Shown: piece by piece, positions 21,392 to 62,901 of the stretch | Layout of the letters: each line of letters starts with the position of its first letter | How positions within the stretch are numbered: the first letter of the stretch is position 1 | Assembly: GCA_903860135.1 (NCBI GenBank) | Contig: CAIOPG010000007.1 | Coordinates: 2,100 to 66,099, forward strand | Length of the DNA stretch: 64,000 nucleotides | Reading direction: 5' to 3' | Source: Candidatus Omnitrophota bacterium | Lineage (GTDB): Bacteria > Omnitrophota > Gorgyraeia > Zapsychrales > Fredricksoniimonadaceae | The notes under the pieces: model-generated | The model's database searches: none | What the model was told of the DNA's origin: nothing | The model's input: the letters and a program-made list of their open reading frames with translations, nothing else | Position numbers and translations under genes: made by a program

Positions 21392-21400
21392 GGATTTAAA

Positions 21401-29935: not shown

Positions 29936-29942
29936 GGTTTTT

Positions 29943-31248: not shown

Positions 31249-31261
31249 GAAAGGAAGATAT

Positions 31262-32749: not shown

Positions 32750-32752
32750 GGT

Positions 32753-33598: not shown

Positions 33599-33600
33599 AC

Positions 33601-43425: not shown

Positions 43426-44111
43426 CCTTGATACCGGCGCGTGGCGGATCGCTGCGGGTGCCGAATAAGAATATTTTGCCTTTGAATGGCAAGCCATTGA
43501 TCACTTATACGATCAGTGCGGCCAGGGCAGCGCATCAGGTGACACGGACGCTTGTATCGACAGATTCAAAGGAGATCGCTGCTGTGGCCCGTTCAGCTGG
43601 CGCACAGGTTCCTTTTTTGAGGCCGTCAGGTATTGCTCAATCAGCGTCGACGGAGATGGAGTTTCTGATCCACGCGCTGGACTGGCTGAAAACACAGGAA
43701 GGGTATGTGCCGGATCTTCTGGTGATCCTTTATCCGACGTCTCCTTTTCGTACGGCGGCGTCGATTGATGCGGCGGTTGACAGAATGAAAGCTTCACCGG
43801 AAGCAGATTCCCTGCGGAGTGTCAGGCTATGTTCGGAACATCCGTACAAGATGTGGGTCATGCAGGAGGGCTTGTTGAAGCCGTTGATGGGGCATGCTGA
43901 CAGGAATGCGCACACATGGTCGTATCAATGTTTGCCGCAAGTTTATATCCAGAATGCGAGTATTTATATCACACGTCCGAGGACAATTCTGGAGAAGGGG
44001 AATCCTGTCGGGGATATTATTCTTCCTTTTGTCATGAGTGAAGAAGAATCGCTGGATGTGAATACGGCCCTGGATTTTGAAACGGCTGTCTTCTTGATGG
44101 GGAAACGATGA
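43413..44111 (+). CDS. CMP-nonulosonic/ulosonic acid synthetase (acylneuraminate cytidylyltransferase family, NeuA/KdsB-like)
   Basis: LALIPARGGSLRVPNKNILPLNGKPLITYTI N-terminal CTP-binding motif; 232 aa. Confidence 0.8.
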   Translation: MEVLALIPARGGSLRVPNKNILPLNGKPLITYTISAARAAHQVTRTLVSTDSKEIAAVARSAGAQVPFLRPSGIAQSASTEMEFLIHALDWLKTQEGYVPDLLVILYPTSPFRTAASIDAAVDRMKASPEADSLRSVRLCSEHPYKMWVMQEGLLKPLMGHADRNAHTWSYQCLPQVYIQNASIYITRPRTILEKGNPVGDIILPFVMSEEESLDVNTALDFETAVFLMGKR

Positions 44112-50652: not shown

Positions 50653-51423
50653 ATGCCCAGGATCGGGCTTAAGTTATGGTCGACAAATTTAAACTATATT
50701 CCGCCTGCTCAAATTCTTTTTGCCAGGGAAGTTTTCGATTATATTGAACTTTTTGTGGTGCCCGGTTCTCTGGGAACCCTGACTCGCTGGCAGGCGCTGG
50801 ATATCCCGTACGTATTGCATGCTCCCCACAGTACGGCGGGGCTGAATCCGGCAGATTCCTCGCGACGGCAAGAACATATTGGGCTGGTAGGTGAGGTTAA
50901 TGCGTATGCCCTGAGCTTATCGCCGGAAAAGATTATTTTCCATCCGGGTATCAATGGCGACTGGCAGGAATCAATTTCTCAATTTAAGGTGTGGCGCAAG
51001 GAGTTTCCCTGTATGTTTGATGCTGTTGTGATCGAGAATAAACCAAGGATCGGACTGAAGGGTGAGCACTGCCTCGGGGCTTCGGTGACAGAGATGAGCG
51101 AGATCCTTAAGGCGGCAGGTTGCGGGTTTTGCCTGGACTTCGGGCATGCGATCTGTACGGCTGTGGCTGACGGCCTTGATTGGAAAGCAGTGGTGCGGGA
51201 TTTCATGACCTTAAAGCCGGTCATGTATCATTTGTGTGACGGGCCATTGTCAAGTAAGGATGCGCATGAGCATTTTGGCCGCGGCGCTTTCGATCTTGAT
51301 TTCCTTGTTAGCTGCATCGAGCCAGGACGGATGGTGACACTCGAAACAAAGAAAGATTTTGATGTTTCACTGGATGATTTTGCCGAGGATGTGGAGGCCT
51401 TCAAGCGTTATGCCAGTCATTAA
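50653..51423 (+). CDS. Xylose-isomerase-like TIM-barrel protein (sugar phosphate isomerase/epimerase family)
   Basis: Alternating beta/alpha pattern with conserved E/H/D metal-site positions (HAPH...E...DFGH...H); weak. Confidence 0.4.
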   Translation: MPRIGLKLWSTNLNYIPPAQILFAREVFDYIELFVVPGSLGTLTRWQALDIPYVLHAPHSTAGLNPADSSRRQEHIGLVGEVNAYALSLSPEKIIFHPGINGDWQESISQFKVWRKEFPCMFDAVVIENKPRIGLKGEHCLGASVTEMSEILKAAGCGFCLDFGHAICTAVADGLDWKAVVRDFMTLKPVMYHLCDGPLSSKDAHEHFGRGAFDLDFLVSCIEPGRMVTLETKKDFDVSLDDFAEDVEAFKRYASH

Positions 51424-52951
51424 TATTGCCGGACGCCTTATCGGCGAAGGGCAGCCATGTTATATCATCGCAGAAATGTCGGCCAATCACGGCGGAAGCT
51501 TGGATAAGGCGATGCAAATCGTGCGGGCGGCCAAAGCGGCGGGGGCCGATGCGATCAAGCTGCAGACATATACACCTGATACCATGACGTTGAATTGCGA
51601 CAGTGATTGTTTTCGTATTCACGAAGGCTCTCTTTGGGAAGGAAAAACACTTTATCAGCTTTATGCCGAGGCCATGACGCCATGGGAATGGCACAGGCCG
51701 TTAAAAGAAGAGGCAGAAAAGATCGGGCTGCATTTCTTTTCCACACCCTTTGATGAAACGTCTGTCAATTTTCTTGAAGAGCTCGGAGTACCTGCCTATA
51801 AAATTGCGTCTTTTGAGTTGACCGACGACCTTTTGTTGCGCAGGGTGGCAAGGACGGGGAAGCCTGTTATTATGTCAACGGGCATGTCGACCATGGAAGA
51901 GATCGCCAGGGCTTTGAGCGTTCTCAGGTCATCGGGAGCGCGTGAGATCGCTCTTTTAAAATGTGTCAGTGCTTATCCGGCCCCTTTGCATGAAATGAAT
52001 TTATCGGCGATCACGAGATTGCGGGAGAGTTTCGGCGTTGTTGTCGGGCTTTCAGACCACACGCTGGGAGATGTTTCTTCCCTTGTTTCTGTTGGCCTCG
52101 GAGCTGCTGTCTTCGAGAAACACTTGCGGCTAGATGACGGTGAGAGTACGCCTGACGCTGTCTTTTCAATGACCCCTTTGCAGCTGGAGCAGCTGGTGGT
52201 TAAGATGCGGGACGCTGAGGCGGCCATGGGCGTAGGTTTTATTGGCAGGACCGATAATGAAAGAGCTAATCTGCGGTTCCGTCGCTCGATCTTTGTGAGT
52301 TGTAACATCAAGCAGGGGGCTGTCTTCTCCAGGGAGAACATTCAGCTTGTTCGTCCCGGCTTTGGGCTTCCTTCGTATTGTTGGGATAAAATAATAGGAC
52401 AAAAAGCCGCGCATGATCTCTCTCAGGGACAGCCATTAGGCCGGCAGGATGTGGTATTCCCATCGGAGACAGTGCGACCTGAATTCCAGGTCCGTATGGT
52501 TCGGCCGGAGGATGCGCGCGTGCTTTGGGAGTGGAGGAATTTGCGTGATGTGCGGGAAGTCTCTATCGGCCAGGAGGAGATTTCCTGGGAGCAGCATGTG
52601 CATTGGTTGGATGAAAAGCTTAAAGACCCGCAAACTATCTTTTATATGATCGAGGTCGCAGGACAAGTGGCGGGACAGGTTCGTTTTGCGATTAAAGATT
52701 TTACGGCACAGGTCAGTATTGTATTGGCGCCATCATATCGCGCTTGCGGGCTTGGCAGTGCGGCATTGCAACAGCTGTCGCAAGCGTTGTTTTTGAATAA
52801 GTGGGCGGATGTTGTTGAGGCCCTGATCCGGCAGGAGAATACGGCTTCTTTATCTGCTTTTGTAAAAGCGGGGTTTATTTTTGAAACAGCAATAACGGTA
52901 TCAGGTGTGGATTGTTTTTTGTATAAAATGAAGAAAACAAGTTCTTCATGA
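51410..52951 (+). CDS. Fusion protein: PseI/NeuB-family nonulosonic acid synthase (N-terminal about 350 aa, with SAF domain) fused to a C-terminal GNAT N-acetyltransferase (PseH-like)
   Basis: CYIIAEMSANHGGSLDKAMQIVRAAKAAGADAIKLQTYTPDT (PseI-type QTY); C-terminal about 150 aa with GNAT motif A region QVAGQVRF...RACGLGSAAL; overlaps the upstream gene end. Confidence 0.8.
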   Translation: MPVINIAGRLIGEGQPCYIIAEMSANHGGSLDKAMQIVRAAKAAGADAIKLQTYTPDTMTLNCDSDCFRIHEGSLWEGKTLYQLYAEAMTPWEWHRPLKEEAEKIGLHFFSTPFDETSVNFLEELGVPAYKIASFELTDDLLLRRVARTGKPVIMSTGMSTMEEIARALSVLRSSGAREIALLKCVSAYPAPLHEMNLSAITRLRESFGVVVGLSDHTLGDVSSLVSVGLGAAVFEKHLRLDDGESTPDAVFSMTPLQLEQLVVKMRDAEAAMGVGFIGRTDNERANLRFRRSIFVSCNIKQGAVFSRENIQLVRPGFGLPSYCWDKIIGQKAAHDLSQGQPLGRQDVVFPSETVRPEFQVRMVRPEDARVLWEWRNLRDVREVSIGQEEISWEQHVHWLDEKLKDPQTIFYMIEVAGQVAGQVRFAIKDFTAQVSIVLAPSYRACGLGSAALQQLSQALFLNKWADVVEALIRQENTASLSAFVKAGFIFETAITVSGVDCFLYKMKKTSSS

Positions 52952-54780
52952 AGCATAAAACTATTCTTGTCCCAGAAATTCATCTCTTTAACTGGATCAT
53001 CTTTTATTGTTTATCCCATGCGATGCGTGTGGTGACTTGCCGTGTTTCTCCGGTGTTGAAACCGTTGCCTTTGGGGCGGATTGAGTTTGTAGACTGGGAA
53101 AAGTATGTGGGGTGGGAAGAAAAAAATATTCTCTTTGATCGTGCCGTTGATCTGCTGGCACAGCTGGGGCTTTACGAGGAAAAACCGGATAGCGCGATGA
53201 TCCTTGGGCGAAAGGTTGATTTGAAGGCGATGCTGCTGCAGCGCCGGAGCCAGGCTTTGACTGTGATCGTTTTTGGTGATGCGGGCCGCTCTGCGGGCTT
53301 GGTATTTATTGATGATGCCTTGACAGCGATGATCCGGCGTCAGTTGTACGGGTGCTGTCGGGTTGGGTTTTGGGCAACATTGAACATTGCACTTCAGTAT
53401 ATTAATTTCTTGGTTGAGAATATTTTGTTTTTTGGCAGAGGGGCAATCTGTTTATGGCGTGGTGTGATGTGTCTGGATCGGCGCTCTTTGAAGGTTGCAT
53501 ATGTTTATGATGGCGTTTCTCCACGGGAGCTTTCTGCGGATTCGAAAGATATAAGTTTTTCCTGGATTATTGATGGCGAGAAGATCAGGCGTGAGGATGT
53601 CTTTTTTATTTTACCTCGACCGGATTTTCAGATGCGTGGTCAGGCGTATGTTCCGTGTTCAGAAGATGGGTTTCGGGCGGCGTATCATGCCGAGACTTTT
53701 CATTATTTTTCAACCGAGGCTTTGTGGGCGGGTTTTCAGATGTTGGGGGGTGTCTTCCTGCGTGCCTGCTTTTCCTTGCGTCTCATGGATATTATCAGAG
53801 TTCGCGTCATGTTGGAGATGGTGCCGGGTATTGTCCTTTGCCGTTCCTTGCGGCCCAAAGTGTATATCATGACGTCGAGTGTCTGCGGGGGGGAGCCGGC
53901 GCACATCCCTTACTTGAATGCCGAGGGTGTCAGGACCGTCATATGGTCTTATGGGACGAATAGTTATTTGTTTCAGAAGAACGGGGGGGAAGAATGCCGT
54001 TTCCGTTTGACTGTCTTTGCGTATATTGCCTCTAATTTCTTTATTGTATGGAATGAGCATTATGCGCAATATGTGCGTGAGCATCCGCAGTTGTCGGTTG
54101 ATATTCGTGTTATCGGGCCATTAATGAGTGGCGATGAGTCGATTGTTCAGATGGGGCGGGAAGCGGTGTTTACGTCTGCTGGGATTTCTTATGATCCGCG
54201 GAAGAAATATATCGGGGTGTTTGATTGTCCGTTGCCTGTGGCACAATTTCGACGCCGGGGATCATGGTTTCCTGAAGCGGTGGATGATGAGTATAATCAT
54301 GCCTTGCTTGCTGATGTGTATAAGATCGTTAAAGATTCTGAAAATCTGGTGCTTGTCTATAAGCCCAAGCGCAGTTTGGCCAGCGGCAAGTTCTCGTATG
54401 CAAAAGAGATGCTTGAGATATTCGAGCAAATGAGGAATGATCCGAGTGTGATCATGCTGGATTATAATATCAACCCCTGGGTGCCGGTGGCCTTGGTTGA
54501 TGTGGCGATCAGCGCCCCGTTTGAGTCGCCGAATATCGCCGTTATGCATTATGGCAAGGAAAGTTTTTTTTATGATCCTTTTGGCATCGTCAACATTCAC
54601 AGGTATAATGATTCTTTAACGCTTATTTTAAAGGGTCGTAATGAGTTAAGAGAACGGATTCAAGCGTTGTTTGCTGATCAGGGCAAACAGGATATGCATC
54701 CAGCGTATGCATTACTGCAAGGGAGAAATCCGTGCTTGAATTCTTCAGGGATCTTCAGAGAATTCCTGCAGTCGTTATAA
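52948..54780 (+). CDS. Large hypothetical protein (610 aa), candidate glycosyltransferase of unknown family
   Basis: No recognizable motifs beyond a REHPQ segment; N-terminal hydrophobic segment; position between nonulosonic-acid genes. Confidence 0.3.
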   Translation: MKHKTILVPEIHLFNWIIFYCLSHAMRVVTCRVSPVLKPLPLGRIEFVDWEKYVGWEEKNILFDRAVDLLAQLGLYEEKPDSAMILGRKVDLKAMLLQRRSQALTVIVFGDAGRSAGLVFIDDALTAMIRRQLYGCCRVGFWATLNIALQYINFLVENILFFGRGAICLWRGVMCLDRRSLKVAYVYDGVSPRELSADSKDISFSWIIDGEKIRREDVFFILPRPDFQMRGQAYVPCSEDGFRAAYHAETFHYFSTEALWAGFQMLGGVFLRACFSLRLMDIIRVRVMLEMVPGIVLCRSLRPKVYIMTSSVCGGEPAHIPYLNAEGVRTVIWSYGTNSYLFQKNGGEECRFRLTVFAYIASNFFIVWNEHYAQYVREHPQLSVDIRVIGPLMSGDESIVQMGREAVFTSAGISYDPRKKYIGVFDCPLPVAQFRRRGSWFPEAVDDEYNHALLADVYKIVKDSENLVLVYKPKRSLASGKFSYAKEMLEIFEQMRNDPSVIMLDYNINPWVPVALVDVAISAPFESPNIAVMHYGKESFFYDPFGIVNIHRYNDSLTLILKGRNELRERIQALFADQGKQDMHPAYALLQGRNPCLNSSGIFREFLQSL

Positions 54781-54796: not shown

Positions 54797-55507
54797 ATGC
54801 ATGTTGGTGACGGAATTAATAAAGGACGTGCTAATTGGGACTTTGGCGGAGATGTCGCGGATAATTTTGTGCCGCATGTGCGCAAGTCAGTGCCTTTATA
54901 TGATGAAGGGCATGAGCTTATTTGTCAGTTGAGTGATTTCTTCTGTCAAAAGGACAGTGTGTGTTATGAACTCGGTGCGTCCACCGGGCAGTTGATCGGA
55001 AAACTGGCACAGCATAACGCCCAAAAGCCGCAGATCCGCTGGATAGGTCTTGATCTTGAGGCCAATATGATCGATAAGGCCAGAGTCTACTGCAAGGATA
55101 TCCCGAATGTCGAGTTTATGGTGGATGATATTCTTACCTGTGACATGGAGAAGGCTGATTTTATTGTGGCGTATTATTGCGTGCAGTTTATTTCTGAACG
55201 GCACCGTCAGGAGCTTTTTAACAAGATATATGAACGTCTTAATTGGGGGGGGGCTTTTGTGTTATTCGAGAAGGTGAGGGCTCCGGACGCGCGGTTTCAG
55301 GATATGATGACAGGGCTTTACACCGATTTCAAAATACGCAATGGCTTTTCGCCCGAAGAGATTCTCGGGAAGGCGCAAAGTTTAAAAGGTGTTCTCGATC
55401 CGTTTTCAACAGACGGGAATCTGGGGCTTCTAAAGCGTGCGGGCTTTGTGGATGTGATGACGGTGATGAAGTATGTATGCTTTGAAGGTTTCTTGGCTAT
55501 AAAATAA
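54797..55507 (+). CDS. CmoA-family protein (carboxy-S-adenosyl-L-methionine synthase-like class I SAM enzyme)
   Basis: End-to-end collinear similarity to E. coli CmoA recalled from memory: W.F...VA..F.....KSVP.Y, YELGASTGQ, NKIYERLNWGGAFVLFEK, C-terminal KYVCFEGFLAIK vs FQCFNFGSLVALK. Confidence 0.8.
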   Translation: MHVGDGINKGRANWDFGGDVADNFVPHVRKSVPLYDEGHELICQLSDFFCQKDSVCYELGASTGQLIGKLAQHNAQKPQIRWIGLDLEANMIDKARVYCKDIPNVEFMVDDILTCDMEKADFIVAYYCVQFISERHRQELFNKIYERLNWGGAFVLFEKVRAPDARFQDMMTGLYTDFKIRNGFSPEEILGKAQSLKGVLDPFSTDGNLGLLKRAGFVDVMTVMKYVCFEGFLAIK

Positions 55508-55520
55508 CAAAGGGCTGGGC

Positions 55521-56579
55521 ATGCAAGAAAAAAATCTTATTAGCAGGATCGAGCAGGATCTCGCGGCATTAAAGATGGGCGTCAAGGATACTCCCGGCCG
55601 GTTGGATTCGAAGTGGGATTCTCTTTTATCGACAGAACCCAGGAAGTTCATTAATGAAGATTTGACGATCAATTTGGAAGGACTACGCAATTTTCGTCGT
55701 GATATTGTTTTTATTTCTGATACGCCTGTTCATGTCAAGCCGGGGTTGGGAACGATCAAGGCGCTCCTGAGCGGGGGGCATCGGGGGGAGCGCCGGTTGT
55801 TGAAGGATGCTTTTGCAGGGATTGATAAAGAAGGTCTTTTACCATTATTAAAGAAGTTCCCTTGTAATGGCGTTGGGAATCCTAATATTTGTCGGCACAA
55901 GGGGTATCAGTTTACTTTACGATGGCTGCGGCACATTTATTTAACAGGGACATTGGGGCGTCATACAGGCGATCGCTTGAATGCCGAGTTTTTTCATCTG
56001 GATGTTGGATCAAGTTATGGGCTTTTTGAGCATCTTTTGAAAATGCAATATTCCGGCGGGCATTCTATCCTTGTCGATTTTCCAGAGCAGCTGGTACTGG
56101 CGCATTATTATTTGGGAATGTCGTTCCCGGAGGCGAAGATCGCAGGGTTTCAGGAGGTTCTTAAGGCACAGGCTTTAGGGCGTGATTTCTTGAGAAAGTA
56201 TGATTTTATTTTGGTGCCCTGGTTTATGTATGAAAAGATTAGCCCTCAAACGATCGATCTTTTTACGAATTTTGCATCTTTTGGAGAAATGAAGAGAGAA
56301 TGGTTTGATTATTATTTAAAGAAAGAGCCGTTCTTAAGTGCCAGGATTTTTTATTGTGTTAACCGGTTTCAATCGGCGCCAACCTATGACACTGACTTGA
56401 CGATCCTTGATTATCCTTTGGCTCAATTTGAAAAGAAGCAATTTAGAATATCCCCTTTCTTTAGTCATACGTATCAGCGCAAGGCGGTCTTTTTTTGTGC
56501 AAAGGTTCCATTTTCATCGCAATATTTTGAGTTCGTCGGTGTTCAAAATAGTGGCGCAACAAATATGAGGAATAGATGA
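55521..56579 (+). CDS. Methyltransferase-like protein, paralog B (glycine motif partly degenerate: HLDVGSSYG)
   Basis: Shares the collinear motifs ILVDFPEQL...YYLGMSFPEAKI...FASFGEM...CVNR with ORFs 40673 and 56576. Confidence 0.45.
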   Translation: MQEKNLISRIEQDLAALKMGVKDTPGRLDSKWDSLLSTEPRKFINEDLTINLEGLRNFRRDIVFISDTPVHVKPGLGTIKALLSGGHRGERRLLKDAFAGIDKEGLLPLLKKFPCNGVGNPNICRHKGYQFTLRWLRHIYLTGTLGRHTGDRLNAEFFHLDVGSSYGLFEHLLKMQYSGGHSILVDFPEQLVLAHYYLGMSFPEAKIAGFQEVLKAQALGRDFLRKYDFILVPWFMYEKISPQTIDLFTNFASFGEMKREWFDYYLKKEPFLSARIFYCVNRFQSAPTYDTDLTILDYPLAQFEKKQFRISPFFSHTYQRKAVFFCAKVPFSSQYFEFVGVQNSGATNMRNR

Positions 56580-57496
56580 CTCATAAAGAAATCTTGAATA
56601 AGTTATATTCTGATTATTATGGGACTGCTGGGGAGTCTATTAAGGGGGGTGTTATAAGCAGTCATTGGGAAAAGTATGCAACACTCACAAATGTGTTTAT
56701 AAACAAAGGGATTTATAGCCTTTCTGGTGTTGGTTTTGGAAATTTTGTGTCGAGCAATTCGTTAAGGGCACTAAAACATTTTTTGCCTAACCGCCGTGCA
56801 CAGTCGTTACTTAATAAATTCCATGTGGACGGTAAAATACAATCGGCGGGGTTTAATGTTGCGAAAAAATCCAAAAGAGAAGTGGATTTTGATTGTGTGA
56901 AGCAAATGTTAAGCGTTGATTTGATGAATAAGCATGAAGTTCTTAATAAAGCTAAGACAATTGTTGTTATCGGAGATGGTTACGGGTATATGACGGCATT
57001 ATTAAGAACAATAGTGCCAGAGGCTAAGATTATTTGTATTAATTTAGGGCGGGTTTTGTTTTTTGATGTTTATTATGTTGGAAAAAATTTTCCGAATGAA
57101 AAGTATGCTTTAAATTCAATCGGGCATAAGGATCAGCGATTAGTTTTTTGGGAAGCTGAGAATTATCAATCATTGGGCGCTCTGCCGATAGATCTATTTA
57201 TCAATATTGCGTCTATGCAAGAAATGAATATGGATGTCATTCGCAACTATTTTAAGATCATGCGGGCCAGTGCGGGAGATGGATATTTCTATTGTTGTAA
57301 TCGTGTCGAAAAGGCATTGCCCGATGGCGCGATTATTCGATTTGATGCATATCCATGGGAAAAGAAGGACAAGGTTATGCTAGATGAATTGTGTCCATGG
57401 TATCAAAAGTTCCCCATACTGTATCCGCCATTCTGGAAAAACTTTGATGGACCATTACAGCATAGGTTGGTGAAATTGTTGCGACATTTTGGGTAA
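56576..57496 (+). CDS. Methyltransferase-like protein, paralog C
   Basis: VVIGDGYGYMTALL motif I; CINLGRVL...YYVGKNFPNEK...IASMQEM...CCNR collinear with paralogs A and B; ATGA overlap with paralog B. Confidence 0.45.
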   Translation: MTHKEILNKLYSDYYGTAGESIKGGVISSHWEKYATLTNVFINKGIYSLSGVGFGNFVSSNSLRALKHFLPNRRAQSLLNKFHVDGKIQSAGFNVAKKSKREVDFDCVKQMLSVDLMNKHEVLNKAKTIVVIGDGYGYMTALLRTIVPEAKIICINLGRVLFFDVYYVGKNFPNEKYALNSIGHKDQRLVFWEAENYQSLGALPIDLFINIASMQEMNMDVIRNYFKIMRASAGDGYFYCCNRVEKALPDGAIIRFDAYPWEKKDKVMLDELCPWYQKFPILYPPFWKNFDGPLQHRLVKLLRHFG

Positions 57497-57514: not shown

Positions 57515-58468
57515 ATGCTGAGGTCAAACATGATCCCCAAGAACAATGACATGCGTTTTGAGGTTTCAACGAAATGTAATTACAGGTGTGTGATCTGTCC
57601 GCATGGCAGTCTGACACGGGCGAAAGAAACCATGAGTCTTGAGGTTTTTAAGAAAATCTTTGACCGGCTTGTTACGGAGACCGATCAGTATGAAACATTG
57701 ACGTTCCCTGGTATGGGAGAACCTTTGCTTGATCCGACGCTCGAAGAAAAGATCGCGTATGCCAGGCAACGGAAGCCGGGGATCGCCGTTCTTATCTTGA
57801 CCAATGGATCTTTGTTGACGTTAAAGAAGTTCAAGGTTTTTGAAGCGTTGGGGGTGGCATCGATACGGGTCAGCCTTTATGGGACAGATCCCGAAAGTTA
57901 TGGGCAGGTTCATGGTATCAATGGTCAGGAGATGTATCCCCGGATCGAGGAAAACCTTCTGGCGATCTGCCGCGCAAAGACGATCACACAACTTTTGTTG
58001 ACGTATAATGTCGTCGACGGCAAGAACGACCGTGTTTTAAAGGAGTGGATCGATCTTTGGAAAGACAAGGTTGACCTTCTGGAGGTTTGGCGGCCGCACA
58101 ACTGGGTCGATTATAAGAAGTTTCGTCCTCTCCAATCGCAAATGACCAAGTCATGCGGCCGGCCATTCACAGGGCCGCTGCAGATCCAAGTCGACGGGAC
58201 AGTTAATATGTGTTGTTTCGACTTCGACGGAAAATTGACCATCGGCGATCTAAAGACACAGACGTTGGCCGAGATATTTGCCATGCCTTTTTTCCAAAAG
58301 ATCCAGCAGTGTCATGCGCGTGGTCTTTATAGTGCCAGCGGCCTGATTTGTGAGCACTGTGATCAACGCAACGCCGACAAGTCGGACACCATGATCTTTA
58401 ATTCGAAGTTCGATATCAAGGAGCGCGTGACACAGTTGTCAACAACGTACAAGAAGGTCAGGGAGTGA
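57515..58468 (+). CDS. Radical SAM enzyme with C-terminal Cys-rich (SPASM/twitch-like) region
   Basis: CNYRCVICPHG (CX3CX2C); additional C-terminal cysteines MCCFDFDG...CEHCD. Confidence 0.8.
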   Translation: MLRSNMIPKNNDMRFEVSTKCNYRCVICPHGSLTRAKETMSLEVFKKIFDRLVTETDQYETLTFPGMGEPLLDPTLEEKIAYARQRKPGIAVLILTNGSLLTLKKFKVFEALGVASIRVSLYGTDPESYGQVHGINGQEMYPRIEENLLAICRAKTITQLLLTYNVVDGKNDRVLKEWIDLWKDKVDLLEVWRPHNWVDYKKFRPLQSQMTKSCGRPFTGPLQIQVDGTVNMCCFDFDGKLTIGDLKTQTLAEIFAMPFFQKIQQCHARGLYSASGLICEHCDQRNADKSDTMIFNSKFDIKERVTQLSTTYKKVRE

Positions 58469-59049
58469 CAGCGCATGTGTTGAAACATTGGTTCTTCTGG
58501 CAGGCGGGCCGTATTTATTGCCGATGGCGCGGGGTTTGTTTTGGGAAAGGCCTGCGGGTATATGGATTGCCGATCCTTTCTTGTCATGATGAGGCAAGGA
58601 TCATGCTGGGGGATGATGTTGTTTTGACAAGTGATCCGCGGATGAACATGGCGGGCATGTCGCGCCGGGTGACATTGGCCGCGCCGTTTGCGGGCGGCGA
58701 GATTGTCGTCGGCGATCATACAGGCTTGTCCGGGGTTGTTGTTTTTGCTGTCAGGTCGGTACGCATTGGCCGTCATGTGAATGTGGGTGTTAATGTATCC
58801 ATTTATGACAACGATTTTCATGCTTTAGATTGGAAAGCCAGGCGGGCCAATGATCTTTCACAGGTGGCGGTTGCGCCGGTGGTGATTGAGGATGATGCCT
58901 GGATCGGGGGCAATGCCATGATCTTAAAAGGTGTCCATATCGGACGAGGGGCTGTGGTTGGAGCCGGCAGTGTTGTAACGTCGGATATCCCTGCCGGTAC
59001 GGTGTGGGCGGGCAATCCGGCCAAGTTCATCAAAAAACTGCCAGCATAA
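58465..59049 (+). CDS. Hexapeptide-repeat (LbH) sugar O-acetyltransferase (maltose/galactoside acetyltransferase-like)
   Basis: Multiple hexapeptide turns VGDHTGLSGVVVFA...IGRHVNVGVNVSI...IGGNAMILKGVHIGRGAVVGAGSVV and C-terminal GNPAK. Confidence 0.8.
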   Translation: MTAHVLKHWFFWQAGRIYCRWRGVCFGKGLRVYGLPILSCHDEARIMLGDDVVLTSDPRMNMAGMSRRVTLAAPFAGGEIVVGDHTGLSGVVVFAVRSVRIGRHVNVGVNVSIYDNDFHALDWKARRANDLSQVAVAPVVIEDDAWIGGNAMILKGVHIGRGAVVGAGSVVTSDIPAGTVWAGNPAKFIKKLPA

Positions 59050-60855
59050 ATGACATCGATCTTCTTCATCGACAGCCGCCAAGGCGCCCGGATCGTTCTG
59101 GATCGGGGTGTTGTCCCTTGCGCGCATGTCCTGCAGATCAAATATGATGCTAACGCTTCGGCTGCGCTTTTACTTCTGCAGGAGCGTATTCCGTCATTGC
59201 AGCTACTTTCTCCGGATCATTATGTTGAGGGCTATGAACGCAGGCACGCGGATCTTGTGGGGGCATTGAATCTTGCCAATAGCGGGGAGCCATCGTGGTG
59301 GGCGTTCGATCTGACCAATAAAAATCCAATCACGACACGCCTTTTTTATGCCATCTACCATGTACTTGTCATTAATAGGATCATAGACCGGGATACCCCG
59401 GAGTCCCTGTTTGTTGTGGCTGATGACATTGAGGCTTTTGAGCAGTTGCGCCGGCATTACCGCGCCTCTTCTACCGTGCAGCTCTTTTATCTAAGCACCC
59501 CCTATCCATGGGGAAAAGTATTGCAGCATTTCTTGCCAGTAGCCCCGATCTATCAATGCCTACGGGCATTGGCCGGGAAAGTCATCGCCCATGCCTCTCT
59601 TTCAAAATTACCTGCTGGCCAGAGGTCTTCGGTTGTGGTGATGTCGCTTTTGTATGATCCGGTCTTTAAGGGAGATAAGTATGAGGATGTTTATTTCGGC
59701 GGTTTCATCGATTTCTTAAGGAAGAGAAATATCGCTTTTATTTCGTTGATGGAGGTTTGTGCGCCATACCAACGGATGATGGCAAAGGCGCGGCGCTTTG
59801 GCCGTGAGGCGCATGTTTATCCCAAAGAATATTTCATTTCTGTCGGGCAGGTCATGACATGTTTAGGGCAAGGGTTGAAAGAGTTCTTCGGGCCGAGGGA
59901 GTTGACGGGCTCAACGATACTCGATGATCTGGATGTGCGGTACCTGGTAGAGCGCTTCTTGCAGTATGAACGTTCATCGACGCGATATGTTTCCAATCTT
60001 TTAATGCGGGAAGCTGTGAAAGGATTTGTCCGCAGGCAAGGAGCCCCGGATATTTTCTTTTATCCTTTTGAAAATCGGTCTTTTGAGAAGATGATGATTC
60101 TGGCCCTTCGTACAGGCGCGCCGGCCACCAGGATCACGGGGTATCAGCATGCGTCTTTTTCCGCACGGCATGTGAATTTTCTTTTGGCCGAAGGGGAGGC
60201 TGACATAACACCTTTGCCAGACAAGATCATGGCTTTAGGCGAAGCGACACGGGATATATTGGCCCGGATCGGGAAGTTTCCGCCCGCCATCCTGGAGGTT
60301 GGCTGTGCCTTGCGCGCGCGCCCGTTCAGTGGAGCCTTAAAACCACAGCGCGTGTTAAAAAATATTTTAGTGGCTTTAGCGACGAATATTGAGGAATATG
60401 TCAAGGTATTGCATTTCTTAAACCAGGCTTTTGATCCCGGCTGTTCGTATGTGGTGCGCCTCCGGCCGCATCCGGTGTTTCCTTTGGACGAAGCCCTGAA
60501 AATATGCGGCAGGATCGGGTTTAAATTTGAGGTTGATCGTGGCGGGCTTGAGGCGTCTTTGTCCTGGGCCGATGCGCTTGTTTATGTGCATTCCAGCCTG
60601 GCCATCGAAGGGCTGGCGCGTGGGATCCCGGCGGTCTGGCTCAGGACAGCCAGTGCGGCAAATCCGGATCCGCTGTTTGATTTCATGCGCTTCAAGTGGG
60701 CTGTTGATACTCCAGAGGCCATGATCCCGGTATTGGCGCAGATCAGTGCTTTATCTGAGATGGAATTCAAGGCGCGTCAAGAGGAGGGCGCTGGCTTTGC
60801 GCGTAAGTATATGTGTCCTGTAACAGAAGAAAGCATGGAGAGGTTTCTGGAATGA
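59050..60855 (+). CDS. Large hypothetical protein (601 aa) with an R-P-H-P motif; candidate CMP-sugar-dependent GT-B glycosyltransferase
   Basis: YVVRLRPHPVF resembles the HP motif and echoes IIYRPHPW of ORF 44108; no other signature recognized. Confidence 0.3.
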   Translation: MTSIFFIDSRQGARIVLDRGVVPCAHVLQIKYDANASAALLLLQERIPSLQLLSPDHYVEGYERRHADLVGALNLANSGEPSWWAFDLTNKNPITTRLFYAIYHVLVINRIIDRDTPESLFVVADDIEAFEQLRRHYRASSTVQLFYLSTPYPWGKVLQHFLPVAPIYQCLRALAGKVIAHASLSKLPAGQRSSVVVMSLLYDPVFKGDKYEDVYFGGFIDFLRKRNIAFISLMEVCAPYQRMMAKARRFGREAHVYPKEYFISVGQVMTCLGQGLKEFFGPRELTGSTILDDLDVRYLVERFLQYERSSTRYVSNLLMREAVKGFVRRQGAPDIFFYPFENRSFEKMMILALRTGAPATRITGYQHASFSARHVNFLLAEGEADITPLPDKIMALGEATRDILARIGKFPPAILEVGCALRARPFSGALKPQRVLKNILVALATNIEEYVKVLHFLNQAFDPGCSYVVRLRPHPVFPLDEALKICGRIGFKFEVDRGGLEASLSWADALVYVHSSLAIEGLARGIPAVWLRTASAANPDPLFDFMRFKWAVDTPEAMIPVLAQISALSEMEFKARQEEGAGFARKYMCPVTEESMERFLE

Positions 60856-61961
60856 ACATTAGTCATGTTTACATCAAGGGCGTGGCGTTCATGCGTTTCC
60901 TGGCGATGCGCTATGCGCCCTTTGGGGGCGATCGCTTCAAGGGGCGAGCGTACCTGGCAAGTTTGAACGTGACCGATAATTGTTGTTTAAAATGCGTGAT
61001 GTGCAATCAGTGGCAAACCACACATTCCGGGGAGCTAAAGACCGAAGAGTGGAAGGATATCCTAGCCCAGTTAAAGGCCGAAGGTATCCGGGAGATCAAT
61101 CTTACCGGCGGCGAGCCGTTGGTGCGCAAAGATATCTTTGATCTGATCGGGCATGCGCGGCAGCTTGGTTTGAACGTGGGGATGACCTCGAATGCTTACT
61201 TGATGAACAAGGCCAATATCGCCCGGTTGGTGGCAAGCGGCGTGAGTACCTTTAATGTGTCGATGGATGCTGTCGACGCAAAATATGATGAGATACGCGG
61301 CGTTGCGGGTGCGTACGCGCGGCTTTTGGCTGCATGTGAAGAGCTGGCGCTCAAGCGCAAGCAGGAAGGCGTGGCGGTTTATTTGTGTTTCTTGTTGATG
61401 AAAGATACGCTGGCGGATTATAAGGATGTCTTGGCACTGGGAGAAAAGCTTGGTTTGCCGGTTGTGATCAATTTGTTTGATATTAACCCTTATTTCTTTC
61501 AGGTTGACGGTCAGAAAGAGCGTTTCTGGATCCAGGAAGCACAAGCCCAGCAATTAAAGACGTTCCAGAAATTCATGGTCGAGAATAAATCCTTGCGTGA
61601 TGACTTTACTTATCACAGTTTCAGCGAGATCAAGTACGCGGCGGATTACTTTAAAGACCCCCTGCAGAAAAGACTGCCCTGTTATGTTTCACAAACGCGG
61701 CTTTGCCTTGGGCCTAAGGGCGAGGTGTTCGGCGGTTGCTGGGCCATGGGGGTTTATGGGGATTTGCGCAAGACAGCATTGAAAGACATCCTTCGATCGA
61801 AAAGATTTATTGAAGCGGGCAGGAAAATGTTCCATAAACAGTGCCCGGGCTGTTCTTGCGGGTATTCGTTGAATCTGCGTTATGCGCCACGGCATATTCT
61901 TCAGGAGATGCTATATCGGATTTTGCCATGGACGCGCGATGCGATCGGCCGGGAGCAATAA
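60852..61961 (+). CDS. Radical SAM enzyme with SPASM-like C-terminal domain
   Basis: CCLKCVMCNQW (CX3CX2C), NLTGGEPLVRKD glycine-rich SAM motif, C-terminal CYVSQTRLC...GGCW...QCPGCSC. Confidence 0.8.
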   Translation: MNISHVYIKGVAFMRFLAMRYAPFGGDRFKGRAYLASLNVTDNCCLKCVMCNQWQTTHSGELKTEEWKDILAQLKAEGIREINLTGGEPLVRKDIFDLIGHARQLGLNVGMTSNAYLMNKANIARLVASGVSTFNVSMDAVDAKYDEIRGVAGAYARLLAACEELALKRKQEGVAVYLCFLLMKDTLADYKDVLALGEKLGLPVVINLFDINPYFFQVDGQKERFWIQEAQAQQLKTFQKFMVENKSLRDDFTYHSFSEIKYAADYFKDPLQKRLPCYVSQTRLCLGPKGEVFGGCWAMGVYGDLRKTALKDILRSKRFIEAGRKMFHKQCPGCSCGYSLNLRYAPRHILQEMLYRILPWTRDAIGREQ

Positions 61962-61965: not shown

Positions 61966-62901
61966 ATGGTAAAACTCGCATTTATTATTGCTACCAAAGA
62001 CCGTCAGATGGAATTGCGGCGGCTGCTCCAGAGCCTTCAAGGGCAGTCTTGGTTCCCCGATGAGATCATCATTGTGGATGCCAGCCGTGAGCCAGCCATC
62101 GACAGGTATGCGGGCGGAGAGGCCGGGGTATTGACAATCAAATACGCCCGGGCTGAGCGGGCATGCCTTCCGGCGCAACGGAACCAGGGGGTCGGCTTGC
62201 TCGGAGAGGATATTAACCTGGTTTGTTTCCTAGATGATGATATTGTTTTTTGCCCGGGGTCGTTGCAAGCGATGCGTGATTTCTGGCTGTCTGCGGACGC
62301 GGGTATTGCGGGGGCGGTCTTAAATATTGTTAATGAAAAGAAGCCGACAGCCGGTGTTTTCCTGAAGAAACTATTCGTAACCGGTGGCCCTGAGAGGGGA
62401 GCGGTTCTTTGGTCTGGTTACAACACATTGATGTGTCCGGCCTCCCACGATATGGTGGTGCAATGGCTGTTTGGAGGGGCAACGGTTTGGCGTCGGGCGA
62501 TCTTTAAGGAATTCCTTTTCGATGACTGGTTTGAGGGGACGGGATTATGCGAAGACCTTGACTTCAGTTATCGTGTGGGGAGAAAATACCGGTTGCACGT
62601 TGTGGCAGGAGCCAGGGTGGAGCATTTGACCGGGAATTCTGGTCGGCGTCGGAATGTATGGTTCGGGCGAAGCCAAATCAAGAATCGTTATTATTTTGTC
62701 AGGAAGAATAGATTGTCGGTGGGCTTGTTCCTTTGGGCGTCAATGGGGCAATTACTTGAGAATCTGGTATTGGGAATTGTATCGTTGGACAGGCATTATT
62801 TATTGCGCACCTGGGGGAATTGTGTGGGTTTCTTTGAGCTGATGAAGGTTGAAGAGGATGTGCGTAAACGGGGAATACGGGATAAGAGTATCCCGCATTG
62901 A
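61966..62901 (+). CDS. Glycosyltransferase family 2
   Basis: LAFIIATKDRQMELRRLLQSL...IIIVDAS...FLDDD GT-A motifs. Confidence 0.75.
   Translation: MVKLAFIIATKDRQMELRRLLQSLQGQSWFPDEIIIVDASREPAIDRYAGGEAGVLTIKYARAERACLPAQRNQGVGLLGEDINLVCFLDDDIVFCPGSLQAMRDFWLSADAGIAGAVLNIVNEKKPTAGVFLKKLFVTGGPERGAVLWSGYNTLMCPASHDMVVQWLFGGATVWRRAIFKEFLFDDWFEGTGLCEDLDFSYRVGRKYRLHVVAGARVEHLTGNSGRRRNVWFGRSQIKNRYYFVRKNRLSVGLFLWASMGQLLENLVLGIVSLDRHYLLRTWGNCVGFFELMKVEEDVRKRGIRDKSIPH

What the first reader, a model, noticed from the sequence alone, without database searches (positions are those of the whole stretch)
57515..61961. Two radical-SAM/SPASM-like enzymes flanking an LbH acetyltransferase and a 601-aa unknown protein inside the glycan locus
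Radical SAM enzymes are uncommon in polysaccharide loci. Two different ones sit within 4.5 kb, each with extra C-terminal cysteine clusters. They suggest radical chemistry on a sugar, such as C-methylation at an unactivated carbon, epimerization, deoxygenation or C-C rearrangement. Together with the CmoA-like cassette just upstream, this is a concentrated block of unusual tailoring enzymes.
Basis: partly seen in the sequence, partly recalled or inferred. Interest (0 to 1): 0.6.

Follow-up and report, generated by a model that had tools for sequence, protein, structure and literature searches.

The report
Radical-SAM pair in a sugar-coat cassette
Two uncharacterised iron-sulfur "radical SAM" enzymes really do sit in this surface-sugar gene cluster, as part of a five-gene cassette that recurs in many anaerobic bacteria and archaea next to genes for acidic 8- and 9-carbon sugars, so they probably do oxygen-free chemistry on those sugars that nobody has yet described.

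Summary
Four translationally coupled genes lie at 57515-61961: rSAM1, an LbH acetyltransferase, a 601-aa protein and rSAM2. A GT2 gene follows directly.

Neither rSAM reaches the cutoff of any curated family (MoaA, PqqE, NirJ, AhbD, DesII and others), and neither has a cobalamin domain. Each keeps CX3CX2C plus only five conserved C-terminal Cys. That fits one auxiliary cluster (twitch type), not a full SPASM domain.

rSAM1 is closest to BtrN, and its four auxiliary-cluster Cys align with BtrN's. Its family is 54-68% identical across most of the bacterial and archaeal loci examined.

The 601-aa protein is a confident GT-B-fold transferase with an extra N-terminal domain. It, or a distant 473-aa relative, accompanies rSAM1 in 31 of 36 genome loci.

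Three results tie rSAM1 to 3-deoxy-2-ulosonic acids:
- the Pse/NeuB context in this window;
- a kdsB-kdsA-kdsD-kdsC-rSAM1 operon in Methanolobus vulcani;
- a Kdo-transferase::rSAM fusion inside a NeuC/NeuB locus.

The whole block (rSAM1-LbH-601-rSAM2-GT2) recurs elsewhere.

The best reading is an O2-independent sugar-tailoring and transfer cassette. The exact chemistry (oxidation or epimerisation) is inferred, not shown. C-methylation by these two enzymes is unlikely.

The parts
57515..58468 (+). rSAM1: a BtrN-like twitch-domain radical SAM enzyme. The conserved start is 57530, giving 312 aa. Radical-SAM cluster Cys are C16, C20 and C23. Auxiliary-cluster Cys are C209, C228, C274 and C277, with a spare conserved C229 (numbering from M at 57530).
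   Evidence: Pfam matches PF04055 and PF13186. No NCBIfam model reaches its cutoff. The family profile matches BtrN at 3.5e-18 in two stretches that align the four auxiliary Cys. The Foldseek top hits are BtrN, DesII and BlsE. The family is 54-68% identical across most bacterial and archaeal loci examined. The Cys conservation holds in 102 wider relatives.
58465..59049 (+). Left-handed beta-helix (hexapeptide-repeat) acetyltransferase of the WbbJ/WcaF/NeuD type. The GTG start overlaps the rSAM1 stop codon.
   Evidence: Hexapep and Hexapep_2 match. The best NCBIfam hits are WbbJ, maltose O-acetyltransferase and WcaF, all below cutoff. Homologues of 182-224 aa lie near rSAM1 in 11 of 36 loci and directly upstream of rSAM2 homologues.
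59050..60855 (+). 601-aa GT-B-fold protein with an extra N-terminal Rossmann-like domain of about 190 aa. It is a putative CMP-ulosonic-acid transferase and the conserved partner of rSAM1. Invariant motifs are YPFENRSFEK, QH, GCxLR, RPHP and VHS...E.
   Evidence: It has no Pfam hit and only a weak TIGR04326 match (57 bits against a cutoff of 250). The AF2 model has pLDDT 91.9. Foldseek finds GT-B glycosyltransferases and UDP-GlcNAc 2-epimerases, with E down to 1e-9. It or a distant 473-aa relative is present in 31 of 36 rSAM1 loci and adjacent in 19 of 36.
60852..61961 (+). rSAM2: a second, unrelated radical SAM enzyme with a twitch/partial-SPASM C-terminus. Conserved Cys are C277, C296 and C331-x2-C334-x-C336. 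It also has a conserved N-terminal extension of about 35 aa.
   Evidence: Pfam matches PF04055, Fer4_12 and a weak SPASM hit. No NCBIfam model reaches its cutoff. Core similarity is to SkfB, BlsE, MoaA and PqqE only. Contexts: a glycosyltransferase follows immediately in 11 of the 12 contexts where the downstream gene could be read, and a 601-like gene lies immediately upstream in 6 of 15 contexts including the window.
61966..62901 (+). GT2 glycosyltransferase coupled to rSAM2.
   Evidence: Glycos_transf_2 matches at 6e-8. The gene call starting at 61966 comes and the junction. A GT2 of the same family follows rSAM2 homologues in L024, L043, L045 and L125, and follows the rSAM1 homologue in Methanolobus L032.
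56576..57496 (+). NanM-like putative sugar O-methyltransferase directly upstream of rSAM1. It is a frequent but not obligatory companion.
   Evidence: TIGR04371 scores 70.7 bits, above its cutoff of 44. Homologues lie near rSAM1 in 9 of 36 loci. Relatives of both rSAM1 and rSAM2 occur fused to class I methyltransferase domains.

Best explanation
The block is the core of a conserved, translationally coupled glycan-tailoring and transfer cassette: rSAM1 - LbH acetyltransferase - 601-aa GT-B transferase - rSAM2 - GT2. It sits inside a Wzx/Wzy-type surface-polysaccharide locus that makes pseudaminic-acid-like and Kdn-like nonulosonic acids.

rSAM1 is a BtrN-type radical SAM enzyme. One [4Fe-4S] cluster cleaves SAM to the 5'-deoxyadenosyl radical, which abstracts a hydrogen atom from a sugar carbon. 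A single twitch-domain auxiliary [4Fe-4S] cluster then takes the electron, giving OH to C=O oxidation. Alternatively the adjacent spare cysteine C229 returns a hydrogen atom, giving epimerisation.

Its substrate is most likely a 3-deoxy-2-ulosonic acid (Pse/Kdn type here, Kdo in archaeal counterparts), either CMP-activated or just transferred. The 601-aa GT-B protein is the transferase that handles that sugar. rSAM2 is a second, independent twitch-type radical SAM tailoring enzyme that works with the downstream GT2. The LbH enzyme acetylates a hydroxyl or an amine.

Shown: the gene anatomy, domain and cysteine architecture, folds, family membership tests, and conservation of the cassette and its contexts. 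Inferred: the substrate class and the chemistry.
For: Evidence that these are not housekeeping enzymes:
- No curated family cutoff is reached.

Evidence on rSAM1's mechanism class:
- Its profile matches BtrN at 3.5e-18, with C209, C228, C274 and C277 aligned to BtrN's C169, C187 and CxxC.
- The best fold matches are BtrN, DesII and BlsE, all sugar-acting enzymes.
- The four ligand Cys are 100% conserved and the spare C229 is 92% conserved in 102 wider relatives.

Evidence on the 601-aa protein:
- It has a confident GT-B fold.
- It or a distant relative lies in 31 of 36 rSAM1 loci and is adjacent in 19.

Evidence for the ulosonic-acid link:
- The window carries PseB, PseC, a KdsB-like cytidylyltransferase and a NeuB+GNAT fusion upstream.
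- The Methanolobus vulcani operon reads kdsB-kdsA-kdsD-kdsC-rSAM1-GT2, preceded by a PFTS protein and a 601-like protein.
- The Kds cassette also lies next to rSAM1 in archaeal loci L028 and L029.
- Ulosonic-acid pathway genes lie within 10 kb in 20 of 36 loci.
- The fusion protein P0395 joins a Kdo-transferase domain to an rSAM1-like domain. It sits in a NeuC-NeuB-cytidylyltransferase locus.

Evidence that the block is a cassette:
- L045 repeats rSAM1-LbH-601-rSAM2-GT2.
- L011, L015, L041, L125 and L126 carry variants of it.
- rSAM2 homologues are immediately followed by a glycosyltransferase.
Against: No biochemical data exist for any member, and I found no paper linking radical SAM enzymes to ulosonic acids.

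Only 20 of 36 loci show an ulosonic-acid gene within 10 kb. These glycan loci also carry other sugar pathways (6-deoxyhexoses, DHQS-like cassettes), so the substrate could be a different sugar.

The fusion partner in P0395 is only 32% identical to rSAM1.

The 601-aa family shows no sequence relation to Kdo transferase or to the PFTS protein. No sialyltransferase appeared among the 50 fold matches shown.

Similarity to BtrN is about 18% identity, so dehydratase, deaminase or decarboxylase chemistry (DesII, viperin, BlsE) fits nearly as well.

rSAM2's C-terminal domain has no solved homologue. Its role is the weakest part of the model.
Confidence: 0.55

Rival explanations
1. rSAM1 still acts on a sugar but performs redox-neutral elimination chemistry, as DesII, viperin or AprD4 do (dehydration, deamination or deoxygenation), or decarboxylation as BlsE does. 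It would not be a BtrN-type dehydrogenase or epimerase.
For: DesII, BlsE and viperin score almost as well as BtrN in the fold search, with E of 3e-10 to 4e-9 against 2.7e-10. DesII also appears in the sequence searches. Ulosonic acids carry a carboxylate and vicinal hydroxyl/amino groups that such chemistry could use.
Against: Only BtrN aligns over both the core and the auxiliary-cluster domain, with all four ligand Cys in register. The TIGR04426 DesII model scores 35 bits against a cutoff of 450, and the viperin model 36 against 180.
Confidence: 0.2
2. One or both rSAMs act on the lipid carrier, the lipid anchor or the assembled polymer at the membrane (C-C or C-H chemistry on a polyprenyl or lipid moiety), rather than on a soluble activated sugar.
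For: Both cores match the lipid-modifying GDGT-MAS enzyme (7tol): 3.6e-12 for the rSAM1 profile and 2.3e-17 for the rSAM2 profile. rSAM2 has a conserved, partly hydrophobic N-terminal extension. It is always coupled to a glycosyltransferase, next to Wzy-like membrane proteins.
Against: The matches to 7tol cover only the generic radical SAM core. rSAM1 stays 54-68% identical between bacteria and archaea, whose carrier lipids and membranes differ. No transmembrane segment is evident.
Confidence: 0.1
3. They are radical SAM C-methyltransferases that install a branched-chain sugar.
For: Relatives of both rSAM types occur fused to class I SAM methyltransferase domains (P0380, P0389, P0241, P0242). 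rSAM1 is often flanked by NanM-like methyltransferases.
Against: Neither has a cobalamin-binding domain, so neither is a class B methylase. None of the listed curated family matches is a radical SAM methylase. The fused domains are ordinary class I methyltransferases, which would do the methyl transfer themselves. Bona fide B12-rSAMs occur as separate genes in related loci but not in this window.
Confidence: 0.07
4. They are SPASM-type peptide (RiPP) or protein maturases, or housekeeping cofactor enzymes (MoaA, PqqE, NirJ, AhbD), that happen to lie in the locus.
For: Pfam's SPASM model matches both. The top NCBIfam hits by E-value include tungsten-enzyme maturase, NirJ, AhbD, PqqE and MoaA. 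SkfB is rSAM2's best PDB sequence match.
Against: Every one of those models scores far below its cutoff, for example 92 against 500 and 81 against 381. Only five C-terminal Cys are conserved instead of seven. The gaps between the five cassette genes are at most a few nucleotides, so no precursor-peptide ORF fits. The glycan context is conserved across dozens of loci in many phyla.
Confidence: 0.03

Closest known systems
BtrN (2-deoxy-scyllo-inosamine dehydrogenase, butirosin pathway; PDB 4M7T/4M7S)
   Same: It shares the radical SAM core and a single C-terminal twitch auxiliary cluster. The four ligand Cys align residue for residue with rSAM1's C209, C228, C274 and C277. It is the best sequence and fold match. 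It has a small-molecule carbohydrate-type substrate. It is an O2- and NAD-independent alternative to a dehydrogenase.
   Different: Identity is only about 18%. rSAM1 is about 60 residues longer and has a spare conserved Cys (C229) where BtrN has Phe. Its context is a surface-glycan or ulosonic-acid locus, with no 2-deoxystreptamine genes. Its constant partner is a GT-B transferase.
DesII and BlsE (radical SAM deaminase/dehydrogenase on TDP-4-amino-4,6-dideoxyglucose; cytosylglucuronate decarboxylase)
   Same: Both are nucleotide-sugar-tailoring radical SAM enzymes. Both sit near the top of the fold and sequence matches for both window rSAMs.
   Different: Both belong to antibiotic pathways rather than surface glycans. 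The DesII model scores 35 bits against a cutoff of 450. The match to BlsE covers only the core of rSAM2.
Unstudied radical SAM gene blocks in glycan loci of cultured anaerobes: Brachyspira hyodysenteriae plasmid pBHWA1 and an Azospirillum sp. B510 plasmid
   Same: These are distant full-length relatives of rSAM1 (25-28% identity over 83-90% of its length). They sit among rfbF/rfbC, epimerase and glycosyltransferase genes. The Brachyspira block is associated with virulence, and its function is unknown (PMC4267127).
   Different: They belong to a different subfamily. Their context is rhamnose/CDP-sugar rather than ulosonic acid, and they have no 601-like partner.
TIGR04326 'surface carbohydrate biosynthesis protein' (LIC13510 type) and GT-B glycosyltransferases
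   Same: The 601-aa protein has a GT-B fold. It weakly matches the C-terminal half of TIGR04326, and so does the Methanolobus homologue.
   Different: It scores 57 bits against a cutoff of 250, so it is not a member. It has an extra N-terminal domain. It shows no sequence relation to Kdo transferase or to the PFTS protein.

Membership tests
Radical SAM superfamily | CX3CX2C motif binding the SAM-cleaving [4Fe-4S] cluster, within a partial TIM-barrel core (PF04055 above its gathering score) | tested here: met
   rSAM1 has C16-x3-C20-x2-C23 and scores 59.4 bits against 29.5. rSAM2 has C44-x3-C48-x2-C51 and scores 78.5 bits. The rSAM1 model matches rSAM folds.
SPASM subfamily (two auxiliary clusters) | Seven-Cys motif CX9-15GX4C...CX2CX5CX3C...C that ligates two auxiliary [4Fe-4S] clusters (motif quoted from memory of the literature) | tested here: not met
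   Pfam SPASM matches both proteins (40.1 and 22.9 bits against a cutoff of 21.5). However, only five C-terminal Cys are conserved in each family: C209, C228, C229, C274 and C277 in rSAM1, and C277, C296, C331, C334 and C336 in rSAM2. That is too few for two fully ligated clusters.
Twitch subfamily (BtrN type, one auxiliary cluster) | Four Cys in the pattern C-x~18-C ... C-x2-C, ligating a single auxiliary cluster after a beta-hairpin | tested here: met
   For rSAM1, the profile alignment places C209, C228, C274 and C277 on BtrN's C169, C187 and the CKNC motif. All four are 100% conserved in 102 relatives. For rSAM2 only the spacing C277-x18-C296 ... C331-x2-C334 fits. It has no aligned solved homologue, so rSAM2 is inconclusive.
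BtrN family proper (2-DOIA dehydrogenase) | Orthology-level similarity, an aminocyclitol (2-deoxystreptamine) pathway context, and demonstrated oxidation of a secondary alcohol | tested here: not met
   Structural identity is about 18%. No 2-deoxystreptamine genes lie in the window or in the 36 related loci. Activity cannot be tested with these tools.
Class B (cobalamin-dependent) radical SAM methylases | N-terminal B12-binding domain (PF02310) | tested here: not met
   Neither protein has a PF02310 hit. Genuine B12-rSAMs occur as separate genes in related loci and none lies in this window.
Housekeeping or cofactor rSAMs (MoaA, PqqE, NirJ, AhbC/D, tungsten-enzyme maturase, mycofactocin MftC) | Score above NCBIfam's curated equivalog cutoff | tested here: not met
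   For rSAM1 the best score is 77.5 against 380 (TIGR04317), and MoaA scores 44.6 against 284. For rSAM2, AhbD scores 92 against 500, NirJ 91 against 515, PqqE 81 against 381 and MoaA 80 against 284.
DesII (TIGR04426) and prokaryotic viperin (NF038283) | Score above the curated cutoff | tested here: not met
   rSAM1 scores 35.4 against 450 for DesII and 36.5 against 180 for viperin. rSAM2 scores 50.7 against 180 for viperin.
GT-B glycosyltransferase superfamily (601-aa protein) | Two facing Rossmann-like domains with a nucleotide-sugar site in the cleft | tested here: met
   The AF2 model has pLDDT 91.9. Foldseek matches CalG1, CalG4, OleD, MshA, TagF and UDP-GlcNAc 2-epimerases with E from 1e-9 to 1e-6 and TM about 0.5 per target. 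Transferase activity and the donor sugar are not testable here.
TIGR04326 surface carbohydrate biosynthesis protein (601-aa protein) | Score above the cutoff of 250 bits | tested here: not met
   It scores 57.1 bits, and only residues 311-485 match.
Hexapeptide-repeat (LbH) acyltransferases | Tandem hexapeptide repeats (PF00132/PF14602) above the gathering score | tested here: met
   It scores 40.3 and 47.2 bits against a cutoff of 27. No specific equivalog cutoff is reached: WbbJ scores 73 against 243.

The most novel reading that the evidence does not exclude
rSAM1 and its 601-aa GT-B partner, often joined by rSAM2 and a GT2, would define a previously unrecognised, widespread, oxygen-independent route for modifying Kdo and nonulosonic acids. 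It would operate in anaerobic bacteria (Omnitrophota, anammox Planctomycetota, Nitrospirota) and archaea (Methanolobus, Thermoplasmatota). These would be the first radical SAM enzymes of ulosonic-acid metabolism, producing a new class of keto-, epi-, amino- or branched ulosonic acid on cell surfaces.
Probability: 0.35. Interest if true: 0.75.

Novelty: new variant of a known kind. Interest (0 to 1): 0.55.

Why it matters
Kdo and the nonulosonic acids (sialic, pseudaminic and legionaminic acids) are key surface sugars. The enzymes I know of that tailor them (for example KdoO and KdnA/KdnB, from memory) depend on NAD, PLP or O2, not on radical SAM chemistry.

A strongly conserved BtrN-like radical SAM family sits in ulosonic-acid operons of anaerobes and archaea and always has a dedicated GT-B partner. 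That points to unexplored sugar chemistry and to unknown surface-glycan structures in large uncultured phyla.

The idea is directly testable, because a 56%-identical orthologue sits in a kdsBADC operon of the cultured methanogen Methanolobus vulcani. It would also assign function to two large radical SAM families currently annotated only as 'radical SAM protein', and to a 600-aa family annotated as hypothetical.

Tried and rejected
- Exact look-up of rSAM1 with the long start found nothing. The collection's gene call starts at M6.
- The organism could not be named.
- The metagenome scan with the rSAM2 alignment was swamped by the generic GGEPLLRxD pattern. Only about 6 of 80 loci were true family members.
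- The 601-family profile found nothing meaningful by sequence in the PDB. hhalign found no relation to the neighbouring PFTS protein or to the Kdo-transferase fusion protein. I therefore dropped the idea that the 610-aa PFTS protein and the 601-aa protein are paralogues.
- Literature searches combining radical SAM with nonulosonic acid, pseudaminic acid, Kdo, or polysaccharide plus twitch, and searches for TIGR04326, TIGR04417 and PFTS, returned nothing relevant. A cyanophage paper that mentions both Kdo genes and a radical SAM gene does not link them.
- I considered and rejected RiPP maturase, cofactor maturase and class B methylase roles (see the rival explanations).
- The 152-aa and 160-aa minus-strand ORFs that overlap the block (58363-58821 and 61071-61553) lie entirely within the conserved plus-strand genes and were treated as spurious.


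Full report
OBSERVATION

- rSAM1 spans 57515-58468. The start conserved among homologues is M6 at 57530, giving 312 aa. It matches Radical_SAM (6e-16) and SPASM (5e-10).
- The next ORF, 58465-59049, is a hexapeptide-repeat acetyltransferase.
- The 601-aa ORF, 59050-60855, has no Pfam match.
- rSAM2 spans 60852-61961 (369 aa from the ATG). It matches Radical_SAM (8e-22), Fer4_12 and, weakly, SPASM.

The junctions are a 4-nt overlap, direct abutment (stop then ATG), an ATGA overlap, and then a few nucleotides before a GT2 gene at 61966. This is one translationally coupled unit.

The window as a whole is a very large surface-polysaccharide region on a single strand. It carries:
- Wza, Wzc and Wzy_C genes and flippases;
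- many GT2 and GT4 genes and a pyruvyl transferase;
- an initiating Bac_transf gene;
- a 6-deoxyhexose pathway with a C-methyltransferase;
- two NeuB genes, PseB, PseC and two cytidylyltransferases;
- a PFTS-motif protein, a CmoA-like gene and three NanM-like methyltransferases.

The exact proteins occur on a contig of roughly 200 kb (202,300 to 219,165 nt in different listings) in public assemblies (ERZ1426836, ERR4195066). That contig continues with another unknown gene and then GT4, WecG, Bac_transf and Wzy_C genes. The closest homologues of all three unusual proteins come mostly from Omnitrophota MAGs.

WHAT THE TWO RADICAL SAM PROTEINS ARE NOT

Every NCBIfam hit for either protein is far below its curated cutoff. 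For rSAM2, for example, AhbD scores 92 against 500, NirJ 91 against 515, PqqE 81 against 381 and MoaA 80 against 284. For rSAM1 the tungsten-enzyme maturase model scores 77 against 380 and DesII 35 against 450.

Neither protein has a cobalamin-binding domain, and none of the listed curated family matches is a radical SAM methylase. So neither looks like a C-methylase.

The gaps between the five cassette genes are at most a few nucleotides, leaving no room for a precursor-peptide gene.

CYSTEINE ARCHITECTURE

In an alignment of 23 rSAM1 homologues the invariant Cys are C16, C20 and C23 (the CX3CX2C motif) plus C209, C228, C229, C274 and C277.

I also aligned 102 full-length representatives of the wider family, 27-50% identical to rSAM1. 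C209, C228, C274 and C277 are 100% conserved and C229 is 92% conserved.

In rSAM2 the conserved C-terminal Cys are C277, C296, C331, C334 and C336.

Five Cys cannot ligate the two auxiliary clusters of a full SPASM domain. Both proteins are best described as twitch-like, with one auxiliary cluster and one spare conserved Cys.

rSAM1 IS BtrN-LIKE

By sequence the best solved relative is BtrN (6e-12 for the single sequence). The family profile raises this to 3.5e-18 in two stretches. The second stretch aligns C209 with BtrN C169, C228 with BtrN C187, and C274-x2-C277 with BtrN's CKNC motif. These are the auxiliary-cluster ligands of BtrN as I recall them from the structure paper. The alignment itself is a tool result. 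C229 aligns with a Phe in BtrN.

The AF2 model (pLDDT 77.5, pTM 0.83) matches BtrN best (2.7e-10). DesII, BlsE, viperin, MoaA and anSME follow. The top three all act on sugars or cyclitols.

The family is large. It gives 632 hits in the 90%-clustered collection, and the 120 best listed are 59-68% identical to rSAM1. In the 50%-identity representative library there are 94 clusters at E<=1e-30 and 3162 at E<=1e-10.

THE 601-aa PROTEIN

It has no Pfam match and only a weak partial match to TIGR04326 (57 bits against 250).

With 25 homologues the AF2 model is confident (pLDDT 91.9, pTM 0.90). It matches GT-B enzymes: the calicheamicin glycosyltransferases, OleD, MshA, TagF and the UDP-GlcNAc 2-epimerases including NeuC. 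E-values run from 1e-9 to 1e-6, with TM about 0.5 relative to the targets. An additional Rossmann-like domain occupies roughly the first 190 residues.

Invariant motifs include YPFENRSFEK, QH, GCxLR, RPHP and VHS...E. The HP motif recalls the one described for bacterial sialyltransferases. That is a recollection, not a test. The family shows no detectable sequence relation to the neighbouring PFTS protein or to a Kdo-transferase domain.

CONSERVED PARTNERSHIP

I fetched 41 genome loci encoding rSAM1 relatives. They come from Omnitrophota, Brocadia, Scalindua and other Planctomycetota, Nitrospirota, Ignavibacteriota, a flavobacterial MAG, an alphaproteobacterial MAG, a Pseudomonadales MAG, a Nomurabacteria (CPR) MAG, Thermoplasmatota, another archaeal MAG, and the cultured methanogen Methanolobus vulcani PL 12/M.

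I called ORFs, clustered them and related them to the window genes. Among the 36 loci with a full-length rSAM1 homologue:
- 31 contain a 601-like protein or its distant 473-aa relative (A3 profile E from 3e-10 to 9e-6);
- it is directly adjacent in 19 and within two genes in 24.

Other recurrent neighbours:
- B12-binding radical SAM enzymes in 16 of 36;
- LbH acetyltransferases in 11 of 36;
- NanM-like methyltransferases in 9 of 36;
- further rSAM/SPASM genes in 12 of 36;
- also GT2 genes, CMP-sugar synthetases, KdsD/KpsF and KdsA.

Radical SAM genes are thus a regular feature of glycan loci in these lineages.

LINK TO 3-DEOXY-2-ULOSONIC ACIDS

Three independent observations converge.

1. In the window, the cassette follows PseB, PseC, a KdsB-like cytidylyltransferase, a NeuB-GNAT fusion and a PFTS protein.

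2. In Methanolobus vulcani the gene order is as follows. Each Kds protein scores above its curated cutoff:
   - TIM-barrel protein;
   - PFTS protein (TIGR04417, 125 against 100);
   - 601-like protein;
   - an unassigned gene;
   - a GT4-like gene;
   - KdsB (303 bits), KdsA (418 bits), KdsD, KdsC (153 bits);
   - the rSAM1 homologue (56% identical, its start overlapping the kdsC stop);
   - a GT2 of the window's family;
   - a second GT2;
   - an LbH acetyltransferase;
   - a DegT aminotransferase.
   The same Kds cassette abuts rSAM1 in the archaeal loci L028 and L029. KdsD lies within two genes of it in L012, L017, L018 and L021. Overall 20 of 36 loci have an ulosonic-acid pathway gene within 10 kb.

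3. One relative, P0395, is a fusion of a Kdo-transferase domain (PF04413, 2e-38) with an rSAM1-like Radical_SAM+SPASM module. The module is 32% identical to rSAM1 over residues 9-280. The fusion lies in a locus with NeuC, NeuB, a CMP-sugar synthetase and two B12-rSAMs.

A GT-B ulosonic-acid transferase fused to this kind of rSAM mirrors the rSAM1/601 gene pair.

rSAM2 AND THE WHOLE CASSETTE

rSAM2's core resembles SkfB, BlsE, MoaA and PqqE, but only over the generic core. Its C-terminal domain has no solved counterpart.

I examined 14 contexts outside the window.
- Twelve of the 13 informative contexts are polysaccharide loci. P0184/L044 is the exception, and L047 is too short to judge.
- The next gene could be read in 11 of the 14, and in 10 of those it is a glycosyltransferase. 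It is a GT2 in P0126, P0131/L043, P0128/L125, P0175, L024, L041 and L045, and a GT4 in P0144/L126 and P0159/L127. In L015 a NanM-like methyltransferase lies between rSAM2 and the GT2.
- A 601-like gene lies immediately upstream in L011, L015, L041, L045 and L125.
- L045 reproduces the full order rSAM1-LbH-601-rSAM2-GT2 at 43% rSAM2 identity.
- L011, L015, L041 and L126 hold rSAM1, 601 and rSAM2 together.
- L125 has LbH-601-rSAM2-GT2 without rSAM1. P0126 and P0131 have LbH-rSAM2-GT2 without 601 or rSAM1.

The block is therefore made of two separable pairs, rSAM1+601 and rSAM2+GT, with an LbH acetyltransferase, and the pairs are often joined.

Relatives of both rSAM types also occur fused to class I methyltransferase domains (P0380, P0389, P0241, P0242).

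MECHANISM (INFERRED)

rSAM1 most likely abstracts a hydrogen atom from a carbinol carbon of an ulosonic-acid sugar. It then either passes an electron to the twitch cluster, giving a keto-sugar as BtrN does, or receives a hydrogen atom back from C229, giving an epimer. A keto intermediate would explain the recurrent company of aminotransferases, acetyltransferases and methyltransferases.

Redox-neutral elimination or decarboxylation, as in DesII, viperin or BlsE, is nearly as compatible with the data.

The 601-aa GT-B protein would transfer the CMP-activated sugar. rSAM2 would perform a second radical step tied to the GT2 reaction. All of this chemistry is untested.

COMPARISON AND NOVELTY

These are new, uncharacterised families within the known kind 'twitch/SPASM radical SAM enzymes that tailor sugars'.

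The new elements are the primary surface-glycan and ulosonic-acid context, the obligate GT-B partner, the spare conserved Cys, and the breadth of distribution across anaerobic bacteria and archaea.

I found no paper that connects radical SAM enzymes with Kdo or nonulosonic acids.

The nearest published analogue of 'rSAM genes in a glycan locus' is the unexplained block on the Brachyspira hyodysenteriae virulence-associated plasmid (PMC4267127). Its rSAMs are distant full-length relatives of rSAM1. Azospirillum plasmids show a similar rSAM-glycosyltransferase pair.

VERDICT

It is wrong on C-methylation and overstated on rarity and on the CmoA link. Interest is moderate to high, because the hypothesis is specific and testable in a cultured archaeon.

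Noticed in passing
window 54797-57496: A CmoA-like protein (TIGR00740, 139 bits, below its cutoff of 193) is followed by two NanM-like putative sugar O-methyltransferases instead of a CmoB. This could mean a carboxy-SAM-type donor is used on a sugar. The same CmoA-like + NanM-like pair precedes the rSAM1 homologue in Omnitrophota locus L027, but in no other of the 36 loci.
   Followed up: partly
window 28871-30446 and 51359-52951: The window has two separate NeuB-type synthases. The first is followed by a KdsC/KDN-9-phosphate-phosphatase-like gene (115 bits), which suggests a phosphorylated Kdn/Neu-type route. The second is fused to a GNAT domain and belongs to a PseB/PseC set. The locus may therefore make two different nonulosonic acids.
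   Followed up: partly
window 30436-34545: An SDR, an aldehyde dehydrogenase (5.6e2 bits) and a split transketolase (separate N- and C-terminal halves) sit inside the glycan locus, between NeuB#1 and a flippase. They may build an unusual acyl or side-chain substituent.
   Followed up: no
window 12000-24000: A sub-cluster holding GH88, a pyruvyl transferase, GT2 and GT4 genes has markedly lower GC (about 40-43%) than its flanks (about 48-55%). This suggests a separately acquired EPS module. Every window of the 64 kb has positive GC skew, strongly so over most of it, and nearly all genes are on the + strand.
   Followed up: no
window 25-978 and 26765-28763: An AbiEii-type toxin gene lies at the left edge, and another follows the locus on the parent contig. 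An AAA/DUF4143 ATPase and a papain-family (C1) peptidase interrupt the glycan genes.
   Followed up: no
L012, L014, L033, L021, L131 (related loci): Some related glycan loci carry about four rSAM/SPASM genes of the rSAM1 cluster within the stretch shown, plus B12-binding radical SAM genes (BchE/HpnJ-like). B12-rSAMs occur in 16 of 36 loci. P0401 is a 1444-aa protein with three tandem rSAM/SPASM units.
   Followed up: partly
P0126 context (no locus DNA held); L043 866-4215; L017, L018, L021: A recurring cassette of a DHQ-synthase-like enzyme, a SIS-domain protein, an SDR and a 2-hydroxyacid dehydrogenase lies close to rSAM2 homologues, with a CTP_transf_3 cytidylyltransferase as well in the P0126 context. 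A DHQ-synthase-like gene, an SDR and cytidylyltransferase genes also lie close to rSAM1 homologues. The cassette may make an unrecognised activated acidic or carbocyclic sugar.
   Followed up: no
L129 (Brachyspira hyodysenteriae pBHWA1) and L130 (Azospirillum sp. B510 pAB510f): Cultured organisms carry distant rSAM1 relatives in glycan loci. Five adjacent rSAM/SPASM genes, plus two more nearby, lie among rfbF, rfbC, an epimerase, a glycosyltransferase and a rhamnan-synthesis gene on the virulence-associated Brachyspira plasmid. In Azospirillum an rSAM/SPASM gene lies next to a GT41 gene.
   Followed up: partly
window 52948-54780 and 44108-45442: A 610-aa PFTS-motif protein (TIGR04417, 140 bits against a cutoff of 100) shows no detectable relation to the 601-aa family. 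A 444-aa protein between the PseF-like gene and PseB has no family match at all.
   Followed up: partly
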